The notes under the pieces: model-generated
Databases searched by the model: none
Told to the model about the DNA's origin: nothing
The model's input: only the letters and a program-made list of their open reading frames with translations
NCBI GenBank assembly: GCA_003344405.1
Contig: NOWV01000011.1
Location: 806,001-870,000 of the forward strand
Direction of reading: 5' to 3'
DNA: 64,000 nt
Source of the DNA: Trichoplax sp. H2
Taxonomy: Eukaryota
Shown: in pieces, positions 52,609 to 59,866 of the stretch
How positions within the stretch are numbered: position 1 is the first letter of the stretch
How the letters are laid out: each line of letters opens with the position of its first letter
Position numbers and translations under genes: made by a program

Positions 52609-54563
52609 AGATTTCGGGCTTACTCGTAGATATTTTAAGCCTTAAGGCCTTGGAAGCTTTGCTTGTTAACGCTTTATCAATAAATTATTCAGATGATACA
52701 TCTGTACACAATACTTGTTAAAGTACTACAGTTCATTGTGTAAATCCATTGCAGCAATTTACTTTTCCTGTTTAGGATAAGTTTTTATAGATTGTTCTAA
52801 TATGTGTAGCATGTACAATTAATGTAACTAGAATAATTTTCGTTTGACTGTACAAGACATACGGGTAATCTTACAGTTAAAACTGGACGTGTAGTACATA
52901 TATAATTGACATAAATAGAGCTAAACTTGAATTATATTTTTTACAGTCCCTCTCGCAATAATTGCAATAATGTTAATATGGTACGATAACTTCGTATAAG
53001 CTTTACGGCCTAAGCCTGGTGACATTATTTGCGAATTAATTAATTTATGCCATGCAATAACTATCTTGATTTCATACTTTCATGCAATTTTGCCATTGTG
53101 AGATTTCAATTTTATGCTGGCTGGAATAGTACGAGTCTACCATTGCTGCTCCATAAAATCTCAAAATAGTTGTAATGAAATTGCGATAATACAGTGCTAT
53201 CATTTATTTAAAAAGCATGTTATTTCGTATGTAGGACATGTATGAAACCAATCGCTAACTAATTTACACGATTTTTGATGATCATTTCATCGTTTGCTAT
53301 GAAATTTTTTCTTATGTTATAATTGCCGTATATTTTGTATATTCGTGTCTTGCTATTCCTACCATATATACGTACGAGATATGATAAATTGCTGACATTT
53401 CCAATTTCTATTTAAAATATAGTTTAAATAGCAGTGAAAAATGATGCTTTAAAGTATTGCATACCTGTAATAATGGCGATACGAGTATACTATTATGTTT
53501 AGTATATAATTAACTCTAACTAATTATTAAGGCAACACTTTTTAACTTAATCGAATTCTATTTTGCTTTGCGCCTAAGTTTTGATAAAACAACTTTAAGT
53601 ATTGAATATATCTTTCTCAAGTGATGCATGGTGCAGCATAACTCCTGCGGTAGAAATTAAAATTATCCTTTGTTTTAAAGTCAAATCATCTGCGTACATG
53701 TATTATATAGTATATATTTATATACTGTATTTACAGTATTTCTGATTGGTAATGTGGCAACCACGACATTTATCTAAAATTTAAAGCTCCAAAATATGTT
53801 GTAAACATTAATAAATGAACTGCTTTGCTGATGAATCATTGCATCTATCAAATATATAATCTAATACGACTGCCGCTCTTGTAAAGAAAAATTATATAAT
53901 GTTGTATTATTAGTGACCTACGTGTGATTAAAATGTCCATAGAAAAGAAATAACAAAAATACTGATTTTGTGGTAGCGGAAACAAGTTTATTCGCATATA
54001 TCTGCATTCAGATTGTATACTGTACGCATGATAATATACTTGTATATCTTAGTCAAAGTAGAATAACTGATCAATGGCAATTCATTATTAGTTAATTTGC
54101 GTACAATTACAATTTCAGTTATAGCTTGTTACCGCTGGAAATGCTCATAGGAGATTTTAATGTTTATTACTATCACGCACAATTCCTATCCATTATAATT
54201 TGCAACCATTTCACATTAACTCGTCACAATAGGATAGCTAAAATAACTCCTGCAAAAATGGAATACTATACATTTATAATATTATACAATTAGATTTAAT
54301 ATTTCTTTTCAAATATTACTTAAACACGTCAATTCATAGCATGAAGTTTTTAGTAGATTTTATCATCATTCGGTGATCTATATAAATACATTCTAGATGA
54401 TATCAAGGACAGTTTCCAGTCTAGCTATATGCGGATTTTGATTAAACATTACTTGATAGAACACAGTAATATAAATTAAAACATCGAATTCATTTGCATG
54501 TACACTGCAACCAAGTAACATATTATTACCAGCAATTTTAACCAAATTGATTTCCTCCACTTG

Positions 54564-55988
54564 CTATTTCGCATTCGGTGATTGTTTACTGATAGTGAAA
54601 ATTAGCAAAATTCTTAGTAAAAGCTTATACTATTTGCAATAAACTTATATACATACAATTTCTAATGCACAAGTAAAATAATGAATAATCCTGACGCAGA
54701 TGATGGTATTTTATAGTATTCACGCAGACATTTGGAGGAACTTAAAGTACACGATTGAAGTCAACTCACGTGTCAGTGAAGGCAAATTTGTCCTTAACAC
54801 ACTGCAAAATTTCCTCTGGATCCTTGCCTTGAATATCCAGTGTTTTCATATTACCATCATCTTATACCGTAATATATGAAGATACACGTTAGATATAAAG
54901 TCTAGCTTTTAACTTTCTACAATTACTTGCACTGTAAGAATAAGCTATCAGTTAAGGTAAACGGAGTTAAGAATTATTACAGTTGGATGTTTGACTCAGC
55001 TCACTAATTTATATATAGAAATTATGCAATCGCTTCTCGTGGACTGCATATTACTCTACGCATGTTATCTCAAACAGGGATAGGCAATACCGCGGTAGAT
55101 TGAAAATCGTTAGGTATACTTTTGGAATAGCTTGAGTTTGCTGCATAGCTTATAGTATGAATTAAAGTATAGTTTAGGGTATACGTGTAGTAGACCTATT
55201 ACATCCCTGATCTCAAAGGTAGGTACAATTTTCTGTATACTATGGTACATAAAAAGTCATTGGCCTCATTTTATATAAGCCCATAGGCAAGAAATAGATA
55301 ATTAGATTGAAGAAATCAGCCTTATACCACTACAACAAACTTACTTAGTTCAACAACGATAGCGGATACATCGCCTTTACTTTTAGAGAATAGAACGCTA
55401 GGATTATGAAATTTTAGCTGAGGAACTTTGTCATAGTAAAAATACCTGCAAGAATGCATTATCAAAGTTAGAGAAAATGAAACAAACCGAGCTCAAGTCG
55501 ATCATATATAAACATGTCTAAAGTATCACAGCGTCGATACTCAATGTAAAAATCGATACAATATAACAAGATGCAGCAACAAGTCCTCGACCACTTGCAT
55601 CATTACAATGGATGCATAGCAATTTTATATCAAGTAGCAATAGTAATTATTTTAAAATAAGGGTACATATATTGCATATGTAGCCAGAGTTGTATTCCGT
55701 CGCTGGTGATGAGAGGAGTATTTAAGAATGCTATACGAGTATAAGCAGTAGGATAAACGATCTTCAACACATACAGTACACGCTCTTATTGTCCCATTTT
55801 TAAGCATACGCGTACATGAAGAATACTTGCCTAGCTCCAAATGATCCTCGACTATTCCGTCCTGCTACTATTTTCATTTGTTGGACATTCTCATTCAGTA
55901 GTACTTTATCGCTATTTAAATGCTGGAATGACCTTTTGATGGCTGCTCTTCCAAGACGTGGTAATTTATTAGCACTTCTAGTCGCCAT
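54564..55988 (-). CDS. MRPS25 paralogue (L51/S25/CI-B8 thioredoxin-like fold), ~124 aa, lacking the Cys-rich C-terminus
   Basis: Exons 55831-55988, 55345-55445, 54770-54860 and probably 54564-54588. Translation: MATRSANKLPRLGRAAIKRSFQHLNSDKVLLNENVQQMKIVAGRNSRGSFGARYFYYDKVPQLKFHNPSVLFSKSKGDVSAIVVELNDGNMKTLDIQGKDPEEILQCVKDKFAFTDTKQSPNAK. Intron 1 is GC-AG. If the last donor is read through, the ORF stops at 54766 instead. Confidence 0.8.
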
Positions 55989-56719
55989 GACAGCAGCTCT
56001 TCGATTCACCTCCTTGCTGGTCCTTCGATCAGTGATTATACCTCCAAAGTAGCGCTACCTAACAGTCTATCAACGTCTAAACAATTCTCTACTGCTTTAT
56101 CGTTATAGAATTAACACATCTATCCAATACTAGCTGGGCTACAAATGTCTCTTTCAGATTAAGCAATGACGACCATACGGACATGGAAGAGTGGAGGCAG
56201 AACTCGAAGGAGCTTGCTGAGGAAGAGGCTCGCGGTTACCACCCATCATAAAAGGTTTTACTATGGAAGATCTGGTAGTGAAGGGGCAGTAAGCTAGACC
56301 ATACTGCACTTTATTGCCATACAGAACCCTATTAGAATATTAAGAAAGTTGTGTGGCCAGGTGCGTGGGGTGCAGTAGCGACCAGTGTTATGCCGTAAAC
56401 TGCTTACTGTATAGGGTATAGGAAGGTACAGGGGCTATAAAATACATTGTCATGCCCTTATCTGGTAATGACAAAGGAAGTCGTATGTATATCGTGTTGA
56501 AAAGAGACGAGAAGGTCTCTAAAGGGCGACAGCTTATTTTGCACATTTTAGGTATAGAGTTAGTGTTACGTACCGAACAGATCTATACGAAAATCGCCCA
56601 TGCCTTGGACTGGACAGACTGTGGACAGACGAGAGCCTACAGCTCATTGCATGCTCTCTATCCAAGGGGCCACTTGCAGCGCTCAGCCATAACTTCAAAC
56701 TCAAATTATTGATAGAAAA

Positions 56720-58109
56720 ATGAGGGGTAAAAGCAAAATATTCCTCAGATCACTGGATTATTTGTCCAAATGGAAGCTACCGTTAAAGAATTCAGTGAAT
56801 AGTATCACAATTTCCTATAATACACACGGAGGTATAAGCAAAGGTTTGAGGTAAGTAGGACGTATGTTCCTTCTTCTGAGAGCAACAATGCCATCATCAT
56901 TCTCTCTTGATGGCCACTTGACAAATTTAGTCCATAAAATTGCCCTAACTATCTTGTATAATGTCAATGGTGTAGACGCCTATTCTACTGTACTCGAGTC
57001 ATTATGTACAGTATTACAAACTGATTACACTATCTATGTCAAGATTATCGTATCGGCTGTCTTCTACTGTATTTCCACAGAAGAATAGCTCAATTAATTA
57101 TACAGGATGATTACTAAAGCTTTAACTTGATTGCCTATAAATTTCTTACATCAAGAATATAGTATTAACCTTATTTTCAGCTATCATTGGTGTCTACTGC
57201 TCATAATACCCAGAAATTCTATAATTATAGGGAATTTGTAAAATATAAACTGCCGCAACTACAATACAACAATCCTAAAGTCCAAATGTTAAAATTTAAA
57301 AATCGCGCACCCGTGCCGAACATAACCCTATTCCATGGTAAGTCTAATAAAACTATCAATCTTGCATGTAGGCTTCCAATCAATTGGGTTATGTGCAATA
57401 CTTGATCATTATAACCTTTAAGGAATAAATTAAATGCACGAAGGGAGTAATAATCGATTGTTTACCATATAAATAGGCTAGGGTACAGTTTGATAAGTTC
57501 ACTGTAAAATGAAATAAGTTCTATTAATAGCAAGCTTTGCAGATAGTGTTACAAAATTTAATCGCCATGTTCATTTGGTACTACGATTATAGACTCTCTA
57601 TTTCATTTTATGTTATGTTTAACGTAGCTACAGTTAGAATTGGGAAAAAAATGCATTTTGATCAAATATCAAGTTCTGTAATTATTGTACGTGTACGTTA
57701 AAAATTTAAAAATACTTCTTGCAGACGATGGAAGGAAATGGACTATTGATGCTGAAAAAACTTCTATGCAAGAACTGGTCATGCAACTTGAGTCTGTAGC
57801 TAAAAAAGACAGGTTAGAAAATGTGTAGCTCATACATATGATGTAACTTGGTCGCAATATCGGCCTTAAATGCAATATGGATAACAATATTTTACTCGAT
57901 ACAACTAACAATAGTATTATCCTCGTTATAGCAAAACTTTATTGCTTGAAGAACAGGCCAGAGCTAGCCAGCATAACCGTGCAAACTTTGGAGATGCTCG
58001 ACAAGGCCATTTCTGTATGTGCGAAATTCCAGGTCAGGTGTCTTGTCCAGCAAAAAGGCTATTATCGGAGAAATTTAGAAAGAAACCGTGGATGCAGAAA
58101 GGACAATAG
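56720..58109 (+). CDS. MRPS25: Mitochondrial ribosomal protein S25 (mS25), 167 aa, 4 exons
   Basis: Exons 56720-56850, 57231-57337, 57725-57812, 57932-58109. Translation includes LRSLDYL...LKNSVNSITISYNTHG...GLREFVKYKLPQLQYNNPKVQMLKFKN...ANFG...FCMCEIPGQVSCP, matching mS25 including the CxCE..GQVxC motif. Confidence 0.92.
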
Positions 58110-59866
58110 AAACCAAAATTACCATGTTAAATTATACATTATTTTAGCAATTAAATGTACATTGTGATTCCAATACGGCTGTATATAAACCATTTCGATA
58201 AAGTACTGCATTAATAAAGCGTAAATTTATGACGCAAGGTATCTACGGTATACAGTAACTTCAATATGATAAAGCTCGGTAAAAGCTTCATACCTTAAAT
58301 ATTCTGATAGATCGGATAGACATCCTTTTACTCTATGATATTTTCTGCTGTATTCATATTTGATAATGCCTTGACCTCACTGATTAACCACAGAATTAAA
58401 TTTTAATCTTAATCTTACTGTGTGCAGAGTGCCATTTTAACGATATTACCGTTATGCTTACTATCAGGGAAGATACATGTATTATCGATATATTGCTTAA
58501 AAACTTCATCACTTATTTTCAGCGCAATGCAAAGCAATATGGGTCTAATAATTAATTAATTAATTGATAGACCAAATTAGAAATTTTATCATATTAAAAT
58601 AGTTTTAAATTGATCACAGACTTGCAAAATCTTAACATTTCAATTCATTCAATGCTTAATTATGTATTAATTATCGAGTTACTGTATTTTCTGTAAAAAA
58701 AGGAAAGAAGCAATAATTAGCGGCAATAACGTGCAGTAAAACGATTCAATTGCAATCAAACTTTCTATGTTTACCGATAACCGACAACTTATGAAAAATA
58801 TCGTAATAGTAATCTTAGCAATAAAATTCGTTTGCATGAATTTCATTGCTAAGGTTACCGCTAATTTTCTTCAAGAAAGTTCATCGGAACCGAGGTGTCG
58901 GTGAAATTATACAGGGCGAAGCCTATCTTACCTCAAAACGCCATATTTCTCAAGTCAATACTGTACGACCGTAACCTACGCTTCTTTGTCCTCTCGGTGG
59001 ACGTATGTAATATGTCTTAAATATCTTACTGAAAGACAAATTACTTTTGTAACATCCTATTAATTGATAATACTGTCCCTCTGCATTAGACATGTAGCTA
59101 TACATTTAAAGGGTTATTACTGGCCACTTTCAGTTAATTGACATGACACATTTATATAACATTAGAGACCGAGAATGTAACAACCAGGCAACCCATTTAT
59201 TATTTATAAATCAAAGTTGCCTTAAATCTCTGCTAGTAGATCCATCCACTATTTTTAAGTATAATAAACCTGTATACTAACAAAAATCGAATGATTTTAA
59301 TCCATTATTCTAACTATTAGGATATATACAGTAGCAGAGTTCGTGCACATTGACATGCTACGCACCTACTTTTACTATACAATGTAAATGTTATAATGTT
59401 GTCAGCTATTTAGTATATTTAGACGACTCAAATATCTACAAATCGGCCTATTAATTTACAGAGAATACAATTTGAGAAGTAATGAATGTTAATAGAATGC
59501 TGTCATCAGATTGCATAAAGTACTGTCCTCTGGCGCATTTACAATATTGTAACAATTAAAATATACACTGTACATAAGTAAAAATCAATCCTGGTTACGA
59601 ACTACTAATGCTAAAATTATGTATGCAATCAATAACAGCTACCGTAGTTAGTCCTTTATCCATGATTTTATATAAGACTGTATATATATGTTATATACTG
59701 ATTAACAGACCTTCTTTTTCATAGCTTATCCAGTTCCTATTTATATTACTGTAGGACTATTTAAAGCGTATGAAATGCTAATAATAATCATAAATGTTGT
59801 AAAAAAATTTACGATCAGCTGATTTAAGAACTTTTGTAGTTTATATGATAATATAATAAACAGTTG

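What the first reader, a model, noticed from the sequence alone, without database searches (positions are those of the whole stretch)
54564..58109. Head-to-head pair of mS25-family genes: canonical MRPS25 plus a hidden paralogue without the Zn-binding tail
Seen in sequence: two divergent genes with ATGs only ~730 bp apart (55988 and 56720). They align along the domain (GRAAIKRSFQHL..GARYFYYDKVPQLKFHNPSV vs IFLRSLDYL..GLREFVKYKLPQLQYNNPKV) and share three introns at equivalent positions and phases (2,1,2; internal exons 101/91 nt vs 107/88 nt). The minus-strand copy ends right after the thioredoxin-like domain and lacks the CxCE..GQVxC tail. The proteins are strongly diverged yet both frames are intact, which points to an old, retained duplicate. 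Established: the L51/S25/CI-B8 family includes mS25, mL43, NDUFA2 and fungal mL61/Mrp49; mammalian mitoribosomes have mS25 but no mL61. Inference: an ancient inverted duplication kept on a shared bidirectional promoter. The short copy could be an mL61-like large-subunit protein retained in an early-branching animal, or a new mitoribosome/assembly factor. The ORF track misses it.
Basis: partly seen in the sequence, partly recalled or inferred. Interest (0 to 1): 0.8.

Follow-up and report, generated by a model that had tools for sequence, protein, structure and literature searches.

The report
Head-to-head mS25 and mL61-like genes
Two neighbouring, oppositely oriented Trichoplax genes encode the mitochondrial ribosome protein mS25 and its older sister, an mL61-like protein; the pair of proteins is already in print, but the same back-to-back gene layout also appears in coral-like DNA, so it probably dates from the duplication that created mS25.

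Summary
In this Trichoplax sp. H2 window two four-exon genes of the L51_S25_CI-B8 family lie head-to-head, with ATGs at 55988 (-) and 56720 (+) and introns in phases 2,1,2. Spliced RNA contigs in 4 of 4 runs laid (3 studies) confirm all six introns. The plus gene is canonical mS25 with the CxCx7C tail. That tail is now described as a [2Fe-2S] ligand, not a zinc ligand (PMC11791143). The short gene is neither hidden nor new. It is annotated in both Trichoplax genomes. Valach et al. (PMC7947838) already reported that placozoans, sponges and sea anemones keep an mL61-like paralogue beside mS25. My tree agrees: tail-types group at 94/93, and a placozoan-only duplication is rejected at AU p=0.012. 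Three things are new here. The same divergent pair, 152-285 bp between ATGs, occurs in 9 of 10 assessable coral-like metagenome contigs. Those genes have the same intron phases. The first intron of the short gene is GC-AG, which public models miss, adding five false residues. A large-subunit L1-stalk location is inferred, not shown.

The parts
55831..55988 (-). Short (mL61-like) gene, exon 1: ATG at 55988, 158 nt, ends in phase 2 at a GC donor
   Evidence: Model. In-frame stops lie upstream of the ATG. The 385-nt RNA joint 55444/55830, with a 3-nt ambiguity, fits intron 55446-55830 = GC..AG on the minus strand. It is 100% identical to the start of RDD45997.1.
55345..55445 (-). Short gene, exon 2: 101 nt, core of the L51_S25_CI-B8 domain
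   Evidence: The exon alone matches Pfam PF05047 at E 0.009.
54770..54860 (-). Short gene, exon 3: 91 nt, ends in phase 2
   Evidence: RNA joints 54860/55345 and 54588/54770 are present in 4 of 4 runs.
54564..54588 (-). Short gene, exon 4: 25 nt, last 7 codons plus the TAG stop at 54566-54564
   Evidence: The joint 54588/54770 is in 4 of 4 runs. The product matches the C-terminus of P0001.
55989..56719 (.). 731-bp spacer between the two ATGs. It holds both 5' UTRs and the presumed divergent promoter region. RNA contigs of the short gene reach 56179-56223. Those of mS25 begin at 56670-56690.
   Evidence: table 8. There is no repeat elsewhere in the window, no Rfam match, and none of the coral-like spacer motifs. 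Promoter function is inferred only.
56720..56850 (+). mS25 gene, exon 1: 131 nt, phase 2
   Evidence: RNA joint 56850/57231 is in 4 of 4 runs.
57231..57337 (+). mS25 gene, exon 2: 107 nt, domain core
   Evidence: PF05047 scores 26.8 bits. In the PDB search all 8 hits at E<=1 are mS25, 2.3e-5 to 7.1e-5.
57725..57812 (+). mS25 gene, exon 3: 88 nt, ends in phase 2
57932..58109 (+). mS25 gene, exon 4: 178 nt, the C-terminal tail with the CxCx7C motif at 58014-58046 and the stop at 58107-58109
   Evidence: The exon aligns to residues 111-160 of a solved mS25 chain (9ojm_T), with all three Cys in register.

Best explanation
The window holds the two descendants of one ancient inverted tandem duplication in the mS25/mL61 branch of the L51_S25_CI-B8 family.

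The plus-strand gene is canonical metazoan mS25. It is a small-subunit mitoribosomal protein whose C-terminal CxCx7C motif, together with a Cys of bS16m, holds a [2Fe-2S] cluster in the human mitoribosome.

The minus-strand gene encodes the tail-less sister, the animal orthologue of mL61 (yeast Mrp49, Neurospora mL108, Trypanosoma mL74). It most likely keeps the ancestral role of a large-subunit protein at the L1 stalk. It is expressed and correctly spliced.

The two genes have stayed head-to-head since before placozoans and anthozoan-like cnidarians split. They are probably driven from one short divergent promoter region.

Shown here: gene models, splicing, family membership, an old duplication, and a layout conserved in coral-like DNA. 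Taken from the literature: the mL61 assignment and its L1-stalk site in fungi and trypanosomes. Inferred: the L1-stalk location in Trichoplax and the shared promoter.
For: Gene models and RNA:
- Six introns were confirmed by spliced contigs in 4 of 4 runs from 3 studies.

Family of the short protein:
- PF05047 at E 1e-4 for the annotated product.
- PDB phmmer hits to mS25 at E 7e-6, covering residues 9-115.
- The model has a thioredoxin-like fold, pLDDT 72, with a best TM of 0.71 to mS25. It also matches the Neurospora LSU chain 6ywe_j (TM 0.57) and T. brucei LSU chains (TM 0.55-0.60) over 109-120 columns.

Identity of the plus gene:
- The tail exon aligns to mS25 with the three Cys in register.

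Age of the duplication:
- A 16-row tree on 102 domain-only columns puts the four tail-types together at 94/93.
- The AU test rejects a Trichoplax short + tail clade (p 0.0119, delta lnL 14.4). A clade of all animal rows is not rejected (p 0.31).
- Tail-less relatives exist in Porites and Nematostella, in the holozoan protists Syssomonas and Amoebidium, and in Andalucia, whose protein has been reassigned to mL61.
- The nearest Atlas clusters for the Trichoplax and Nematostella short proteins are fungal PF05047 clusters, one auto-named MRP49, at scores 0.89-0.94. This is a lead only.

Layout:
- In 9 of 10 coral-like contigs with upstream DNA, a tail-type gene with the Cys motif lies on the opposite strand, 152-285 bp from the short gene's ATG.
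- Intron phases 2,1,2 are shared by the coral-like short gene (L004, exons 188/107/97) and the coral-like tail gene (L009, exons 128/107/91).

Literature:
- PMC7947838 (passages read) states that placozoa, sponges and sea anemones have both versions, that mS25 arose from mL61 early in Metazoa, and that mL61 homologues sit at the L1 stalk.
Against: - By plain similarity the short proteins are much closer to solved mammalian mS25 than to a solved fungal mL61-type chain. The profile of 11 short-type proteins scores mS25 at E 1.9e-22 (82.5 bits) against 6ywe_j at 2.3e-8 (36.9 bits). The best fold matches are also mS25.
- In my trees the Trichoplax short protein has no supported sister. Its grouping with the cnidarian short proteins is neither recovered nor rejected (p 0.15).
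- With only 13 rows the placozoan-only duplication was not rejected (p 0.10). A cnidarian-only duplication is still not rejected at 0.05 (p 0.07).
- There is no proteomic or structural evidence for either protein in any placozoan or cnidarian mitoribosome.
- The annotated short product scores below Pfam's gathering cut-off (22.7 vs 26.6 bits).
- One coral-like contig (L011) has no partner gene within 2.2 kb upstream.
- The conserved spacer motifs of the coral-like contigs are absent from the Trichoplax spacer.
Confidence: 0.7

Rival explanations
1. The short protein is an alternative, cluster-free mS25 isoform. It would occupy the mS25 site of the small subunit in some conditions or tissues, rather than being a large-subunit protein.
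For: - Its closest solved relatives by sequence and by fold are mammalian mS25.
- PMC11791143 (passage read) treats extra copies in Cnidaria and Porifera as mS25 paralogues with or without the Cys motif. It notes that teleost mS25 works without the full motif.
Against: - The tail-less form is the state seen in the protist relatives.
- Tail-types form their own group at 94/93.
- PMC7947838 places the animal short forms with the non-metazoan mL61-like sequences.
- The Atlas neighbours are fungal Mrp49-type clusters, not mS25 clusters. This is a lead only.
Confidence: 0.15
2. The short protein has left the ribosome. It would act as a free thioredoxin-fold factor, for example in mitoribosome or complex I assembly like its distant relative NDUFA2.
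For: - NDUFA2 chains are the next-best PDB hits after mS25.
- No experimental localisation exists.
Against: - NDUFA2 scores are far weaker: E 0.97 for the single protein, and 4e-9 against 2e-22 for the profile.
- The N-terminal segment shared with mS25 and mL61 is present. Aligned lengths are 105-120 columns against 82-88 for NDUFA2.
- Long retention beside mS25 suggests a linked role.
Confidence: 0.08
3. The pair is a recent placozoan duplication, or has been homogenised locally, and the likeness to the coral-like layout is coincidence.
For: - The copies are adjacent and share intron positions.
- The 13-row test did not reject a Trichoplax-only clade (p 0.10).
Against: - The two products are only 30% identical.
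- The 16-row AU test rejects the clade (p 0.012).
- The same tail/short divergent pair, with the same intron phases, occurs in coral-like contigs.
Confidence: 0.03

Closest known systems
mL61 (yeast Mrp49; Neurospora 'mL108'; Trypanosoma 'mL74') and the 'mL61-like' proteins of non-bilaterian animals described by Valach et al. 2021 (PMC7947838)
   Same: - It has the L51_S25_CI-B8 thioredoxin-like domain with the N-terminal segment shared with mS25.
- It has no Cys tail and is short.
- It falls outside the tail-type (mS25) group in my tree.
- The paper says placozoans carry such a copy beside mS25.
   Different: - Sequence likeness to the one solved fungal chain of this type that my searches hit (6ywe_j) is weak: 36.9 bits for the profile.
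- That 6ywe_j is mL108 is my inference from the paper's text and the chain's description. No call confirmed it.
- The L1-stalk location is known only for fungi and trypanosomes, not for any animal.
mS25 (MRPS25), small-subunit mitoribosomal protein of animals
   Same: - The plus-strand gene is a full member. It has the domain plus the CxCx7C tail, aligned to mammalian mS25.
- The short gene shares the domain, three intron positions and phases, and its best PDB sequence and fold matches with mS25.
   Different: - The short gene ends about 7 codons after the domain and has none of the three tail Cys.
- It does not group with tail-types.
Other L51_S25_CI-B8 members: NDUFA2 (complex I B8), mL43, mL53
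   Same: Same fold and Pfam family or clan.
   Different: - Scores are much weaker. For the single protein, NDUFA2 scores E 0.97 and mL43 is not hit.
- For the profile, NDUFA2 scores 4e-9 and mL43 2e-6 or worse, against 2e-22 for mS25.
- Structural alignments are shorter and lack the N-terminal segment.

Membership tests
L51_S25_CI-B8 (Pfam PF05047) superfamily - short gene | Match to the Pfam profile at or above the gathering score | tested here: inconclusive
   P0001 scores 22.7 bits (E 1e-4) and P0002 scores 22.1 bits, against a cut-off of 26.6. Both annotated products carry a false 5-residue insertion inside the domain. The correct spliced product could not be handed to the tool. Nematostella P0011 carries PF05047 precomputed.
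L51_S25_CI-B8 (Pfam PF05047) superfamily - short gene | Thioredoxin-like beta-alpha-beta-beta-beta-alpha fold | tested here: met
   AlphaFold2 model from alignment A2: pLDDT 72.2, pTM 0.60, elements E35-43, H52-71, E76-82, E86-91, E96-100, H106-117. Foldseek gives TMq 0.71 to mS25, and also matches NDUFA2 and mL43.
mL61 (Mrp49/mL108/mL74 lineage) - short gene | Lies outside the metazoan mS25 clade, with the non-metazoan members of the mS25 & mL61 clade | tested here: met
   Tail-types form one side of a branch at 94/93. The short + tail Trichoplax clade is rejected (AU p 0.0119). The exact sister of the Trichoplax short protein is unresolved. PMC7947838 reports the same placement for placozoan sequences. 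Its tree figure and supplement were not seen.
mL61 (Mrp49/mL108/mL74 lineage) - short gene | No C-terminal Cys (Fe-S) tail | tested here: met
   The product has 124 aa and a single Cys at 107. It ends 7 codons after exon 3. RNA confirms the last exon.
mL61 (Mrp49/mL108/mL74 lineage) - short gene | Closer to experimentally confirmed mL61 than to mS25 | tested here: not met
   The profile of 11 short-type proteins scores mammalian mS25 at 82.5 bits against Neurospora 6ywe_j at 36.9 bits. Fold TMq is 0.71 against 0.57. This is expected if mS25 arose from an animal mL61, but similarity alone does not place the protein in mL61.
mL61 (Mrp49/mL108/mL74 lineage) - short gene | Component of the mitoribosomal large subunit at the L1 stalk (uL1m, H76-78) | not testable with these tools
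   No placozoan or cnidarian mitoribosome structure or proteome was available. No genome is held for the window, so uL1m could not be fetched for a complex test.
mS25 (MRPS25) - plus gene | Domain plus the C-terminal CxCx7C motif that ligates [2Fe-2S] with bS16m | tested here: met
   The motif lies at residues 137-147, aligned Cys for Cys to a solved mS25 chain (9ojm_T). Exon 2 hits only mS25 in the PDB (8 of 8 hits). The motif definition comes from PMC11791143. Cluster binding itself was not tested.
mS25 (MRPS25) - plus gene | Groups with tail-type proteins of other animals | tested here: met
   It groups with the Oscarella tail-type and two coral-like tail-types at 94/93 on domain-only columns.

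The most novel reading that the evidence does not exclude
The divergent mS25/mL61 gene pair is the original product of the inverted tandem duplication that created mS25 at the base of animals. On this reading it has been kept as one bidirectional unit in placozoans and cnidarians ever since. That would be a rare case in which the birth of a small-subunit ribosomal protein from a large-subunit one is still legible in gene order, intron phases and a shared promoter. The loss of mL61 in Bilateria would then have broken a co-regulated unit. I found no mention of gene order, introns or synteny in the main text of PMC7947838. The literature searches found no paper on the layout. The supplements could not be seen.
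Probability: 0.55. Interest if true: 0.45.

Novelty: already known. Interest (0 to 1): 0.3.

Why it matters
The existence of an mL61-like sister of mS25 in placozoans, and the idea that mS25 was born from mL61 early in animal evolution, are already published. The finding as written therefore adds no new kind of thing.

This check adds physical support for that scenario:
- The two genes are still head-to-head in Trichoplax and in at least five sequence-distinct coral-like lineages.
- All four genes examined share three introns in phases 2,1,2.
- These points argue for a DNA-level inverted tandem duplication, and for long selective retention of the pair, possibly through a shared promoter.

It also corrects the public Trichoplax gene models. 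A GC-AG intron was missed, which adds five false residues inside the domain. The NCBI record RDD45997.1 names the short protein 'S25'.

Non-bilaterian animals are the only animals in which the L1-stalk role of mL61 could be studied next to mS25.

Tried and rejected
- **Word-index searches.** A search with P0001 found only itself, 1 hit among 5 candidates. A search with alignment A1 found 8 proteins among 1770 candidates. Both are too insensitive to say anything about distribution.
- **Representatives search.** It gave 11 hits at E<=1e-3, one of them (P0007, a repeat protein) spurious. It cannot speak to presence or absence in Bilateria. Mammalian mS25 scores only about 28 bits against P0001.
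- **Own genome.** None is held, so mL43, NDUFA2, mL53 and uL1m of Trichoplax could not be located.
- **13-row tree.** A placozoan-only duplication was not rejected (p 0.103). It was rejected only after the coral-like tail-types were added.
- **Rows left out of the trees.** These were P0002 (near-identical T. adhaerens), P0003 (exon 1 only), P0007 (spurious), P0013-P0019 (members of the Porites cluster at 90% identity) and P0023 (unspliced intron).
- **Spacer 55989-56719.** There is no repeat elsewhere in the window and no Rfam match in 54300-58400 at E<=1. None of the conserved coral-like spacer blocks is present. Only a 1-mismatch match to a hexamer was found, which is chance level.
- **L011.** No partner gene lies within 2.2 kb upstream. 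It shares only 379 bp with L007-L010, so it is probably a chimeric contig or a variant. It counts as the 1 miss of 10.
- **L002.** Only 17 bp lie upstream, so it cannot be assessed.
- **L012-L015.** These 1.1-1.4 kb contigs hold only later exons of the short gene, so the layout cannot be assessed.
- **L016.** This is a 48% GC contig of another eukaryote with a single family exon and no second family gene in 11.6 kb. It is uninformative.
- **dN/dS.** It could not be computed. Runs X16 and X17 gave only 3 coding differences in the short gene (2 synonymous, 1 Leu>Val) and 2 in mS25 (both synonymous).
- **Read depths.** Depths of contigs cannot rank the two genes.
- **Complex prediction.** Not used. 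No binding claim is made and no partner sequence was available.
- **Earlier findings of this scan.** None bear on this.
- **Paper searches on the layout.** The search for MRPS25 with 'bidirectional promoter' listed 3 unrelated papers (listing only).
Full report
**What is in the window**

The region lies in a 31-37% GC, intron-rich eukaryotic sequence.

On the plus strand, a four-exon gene runs 56720-56850, 57231-57337, 57725-57812 and 57932-58109. All its introns are GT-AG, and it encodes 167 residues.

On the minus strand, a four-exon gene runs 55988-55831, 55445-55345, 54860-54770 and 54588-54564, and encodes 124 residues. Its first intron has a GC donor. The ATG at 55988 is preceded by in-frame stops.

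**How the two products compare**

BLASTP of the two spliced products, computed in a script, gives 30% identity over 89 residues. Introns 1 and 2 interrupt exactly aligned codons. Intron 3 is one codon off in an ungapped extension of a poorly aligned stretch, and has the same phase.

**Organism and existing annotation**

Exon 1 of the minus gene is 100% identical to the start of a 129-residue protein that NCBI holds as RDD45997.1, '28S ribosomal protein S25, mitochondrial [Trichoplax sp. H2]'. Its cluster mate is XP_002111845.1 / TRIADDRAFT_55285 of T. adhaerens. The gene is therefore not hidden.

Both public models carry five extra residues (QVFFM) at the exon 1/2 junction. All eight aligned relatives lack them.

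**Expression and splicing**

I laid four runs: two recorded as RNA and two guessed to be RNA, from three studies. In all four, contigs join 54588/54770, 54860/55345 and 55444/55830 on the minus gene. On the plus gene they join 56848/57229, 57336/57724 and 57810/57930, within the stated 1-3 nt ambiguities.

The 385-nt skip at the first minus-strand intron fits the GC-AG intron 55446-55830. It does not fit the 371-nt intron implied by the public models.

Contigs of the short gene extend upstream to 56179-56223. Those of the plus gene begin at 56670-56690. Contigs cannot define transcript ends or levels.

**What the plus gene is**

- Its exon 2 matches PF05047 at 26.8 bits. It hits only mS25 chains in the PDB, 8 of 8 hits.
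- Its last exon aligns to residues 111-160 of a solved mS25 chain (9ojm_T), with the three Cys in register.
- The motif CxCx7C lies at residues 137-147.
- According to PMC11791143 (passages read), this motif together with a Cys of bS16m binds a [2Fe-2S] cluster in the human mitoribosome. 'Zn-binding tail' is therefore outdated wording.

**What the short gene is**

- The annotated product matches PF05047 at E 1e-4, below the gathering score.
- Against the PDB it hits eight mS25 sequences (E 7e-6 to 3e-5, residues 9-115 against 1-104) and NDUFA2 only at E 0.97. It hits no mL43.
- An exhaustive HMMER pass over 1.84 billion representatives gave 11 hits at E<=1e-3.
- By their sources' names, those hits include tail-less proteins of Porites and Nematostella, of the holozoan protists Syssomonas and Amoebidium, and of Andalucia. 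They also include one tail-bearing sponge protein (Oscarella), a 73-residue placozoan-like fragment, three unnamed metagenome or assembly proteins and one spurious repeat protein.
- A profile of 11 tail-less proteins scores mammalian mS25 at 82.5 bits, and a Neurospora large-subunit chain (6ywe_j) at 36.9 bits. NDUFA2 and mL43 score lower.
- A model built from that alignment (pLDDT 72) has the thioredoxin-like fold. It matches mS25 best (TM 0.71). It also matches 6ywe_j and T. brucei large-subunit chains over 109-120 columns, longer than its matches to NDUFA2 or mL43.
- The Atlas look-alikes of the Trichoplax and Nematostella short proteins are fungal PF05047 clusters, one auto-named MRP49, at 0.89-0.94. 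I treat this as a lead only.

**Literature**

Valach et al. (Mol Biol Evol 38:788, PMC7947838; passages read, figures and supplements not seen) make the following statements:
- mS25 and mL61 are easily confounded.
- The Andalucia protein that my search hit is mL61, not mS25.
- Neurospora mL108 and Trypanosoma mL74 are mL61 and sit at the L1 stalk.
- mS25 therefore arose from mL61 by duplication early in Metazoa, and mL61 was lost in Bilateria.

PMC11791143 also notes extra mS25 paralogues in some Cnidaria and Porifera.

In the main text of PMC7947838 the words intron, synteny, adjacent and Trichoplax do not occur. My searches found no paper on the gene layout (listings only for papers other than the two read).

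**Own test of the age of the duplication**

The first tree had 13 rows and 103 domain-only columns. The Trichoplax tail-type grouped with the Oscarella tail-type (88/90), but a Trichoplax-only clade was not rejected (p 0.10).

I then added two coral-like tail-types and one coral-like short protein, giving 16 rows and 102 columns:
- The four tail-types form one side of a branch (94/93).
- The cnidarian short proteins form another (94/96).
- The Trichoplax-only clade is rejected (AU p 0.0119, delta lnL 14.4).
- A cnidarian-only duplication is disfavoured but not rejected (p 0.07).
- A clade of all animal rows is not rejected (p 0.31).
- The sister of the Trichoplax short protein is unresolved.

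**New observation: the layout is conserved**

A scan of metagenome contigs with an alignment of cnidarian short proteins returned 16 loci.
- Eleven hold exon 1 of a short gene that is 55-76% identical to Porites.
- Ten of these have at least 565 bp of upstream DNA. L002 has only 17 bp.
- In nine of the ten (L001, L003-L010), a tail-type gene lies on the opposite strand with its ATG 152-285 bp from the short gene's ATG. Its exon 1 ends at the same GLR codon as in Trichoplax. Where the whole gene is present (L001, L003), it carries the Cys motif.
- L011 is the miss. It shares only 379 bp with its near relatives and looks chimeric.

By nucleotide identity the nine loci represent at least five distinct lineages. 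That they are anthozoan is inferred from their likeness to Porites and Nematostella proteins.

Contigs L004-L010 carry introns, so they are genomic. In L004 the short gene has exons of 188/107/97 nt. In L009 the tail gene has exons of 128/107/91 nt. Both have phases 2,1,2.

L001 and L003 hold intron-less copies joined across the spacer, as RNA-derived assemblies would.

The coral-like spacers share conserved blocks. These blocks are not found in the Trichoplax spacer.

**Mechanism, with what is shown and what is inferred**

Shown:
- Two expressed, correctly spliced paralogues.
- One has the Fe-S tail and one does not.
- The split is old.
- The divergent layout and intron phases are conserved.

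From the literature:
- The tail-less lineage is mL61.
- mL61 homologues bind at the L1 stalk of the large subunit in fungi and trypanosomes.

Inferred:
- The Trichoplax short protein still does so.
- Both genes are driven from one divergent promoter region.
- Its N-terminus (6 Lys/Arg and no acidic residue in the first 26) is compatible with mitochondrial import. No predictor was run.

The main rival is that the short protein is a cluster-free alternative mS25. That rival rests on the fact that plain similarity and fold are closest to mS25.

**Verdict**

- The added value is the conserved head-to-head layout with shared intron phases, and a corrected gene model.

Noticed in passing
window 55817-55830 and the intron 55446-55830: The first intron of the short gene uses a GC donor (AG|GCAAGT). 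Both public Trichoplax models instead use a GT 14 nt further on, which adds five residues (QVFFM). All eight aligned relatives lack those residues, and the 385-nt RNA joint excludes them.
   Followed up: yes
window 56119, 56176, 56184 (minus strand): If the RNA contigs that reach 56179-56223 mark the true 5' UTR of the short gene, it holds up to three upstream ATGs. All are out of frame with the main ORF and open short reading frames.
   Followed up: partly
window 56197-56385: One low-depth contig (run X13, 190 nt, depth 2.3) lies in the spacer with 7 differences and 1 inserted base. It could be an allele, a relative's sequence or a weak divergent transcript.
   Followed up: no
L001:478-1701 and L003:1645-2503: These two metagenome contigs hold intron-less versions of the tail gene (and in L001 also of the short gene), joined across the spacer. 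Closely related contigs (L002, L005, L009) have the introns. This looks like assembly from RNA, which would mean that transcripts or reads span the 161-285 bp spacer.
   Followed up: partly
L001, L003-L010, spacer between the two ATGs: The coral-like spacers share a conserved block (CCACCATGATRGAACA), then CAGCGGTAAT, and further on the reverse-complement hexamer within GCCGCTGAAC. These are candidate sites of a divergent promoter. None is present in the Trichoplax spacer.
   Followed up: partly
L011:1-2197: The upstream 2.2 kb of this contig is unrelated to its near-identical relatives L007-L010, and similarity starts 11 bp before the ATG. It is either a chimeric assembly or a structural variant that separates the pair.
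   Followed up: partly
P0003 (73 aa, unnamed assembly contig): This is an ORF 66% identical to exon 1 of the short gene. It ends exactly at the residues where the Trichoplax exon 1 ends. It is probably the same exon in a more distant placozoan.
   Followed up: no
window 55393, 55902, 55917, 57306, 57980: Contigs of runs X16 and X17 (another organism label) differ from the window at three coding sites of the short gene (two synonymous, one Leu71>Val). They differ at two coding sites of mS25, both synonymous. The T. adhaerens protein differs by one Asp>Asn and a different last-exon model.
   Followed up: partly
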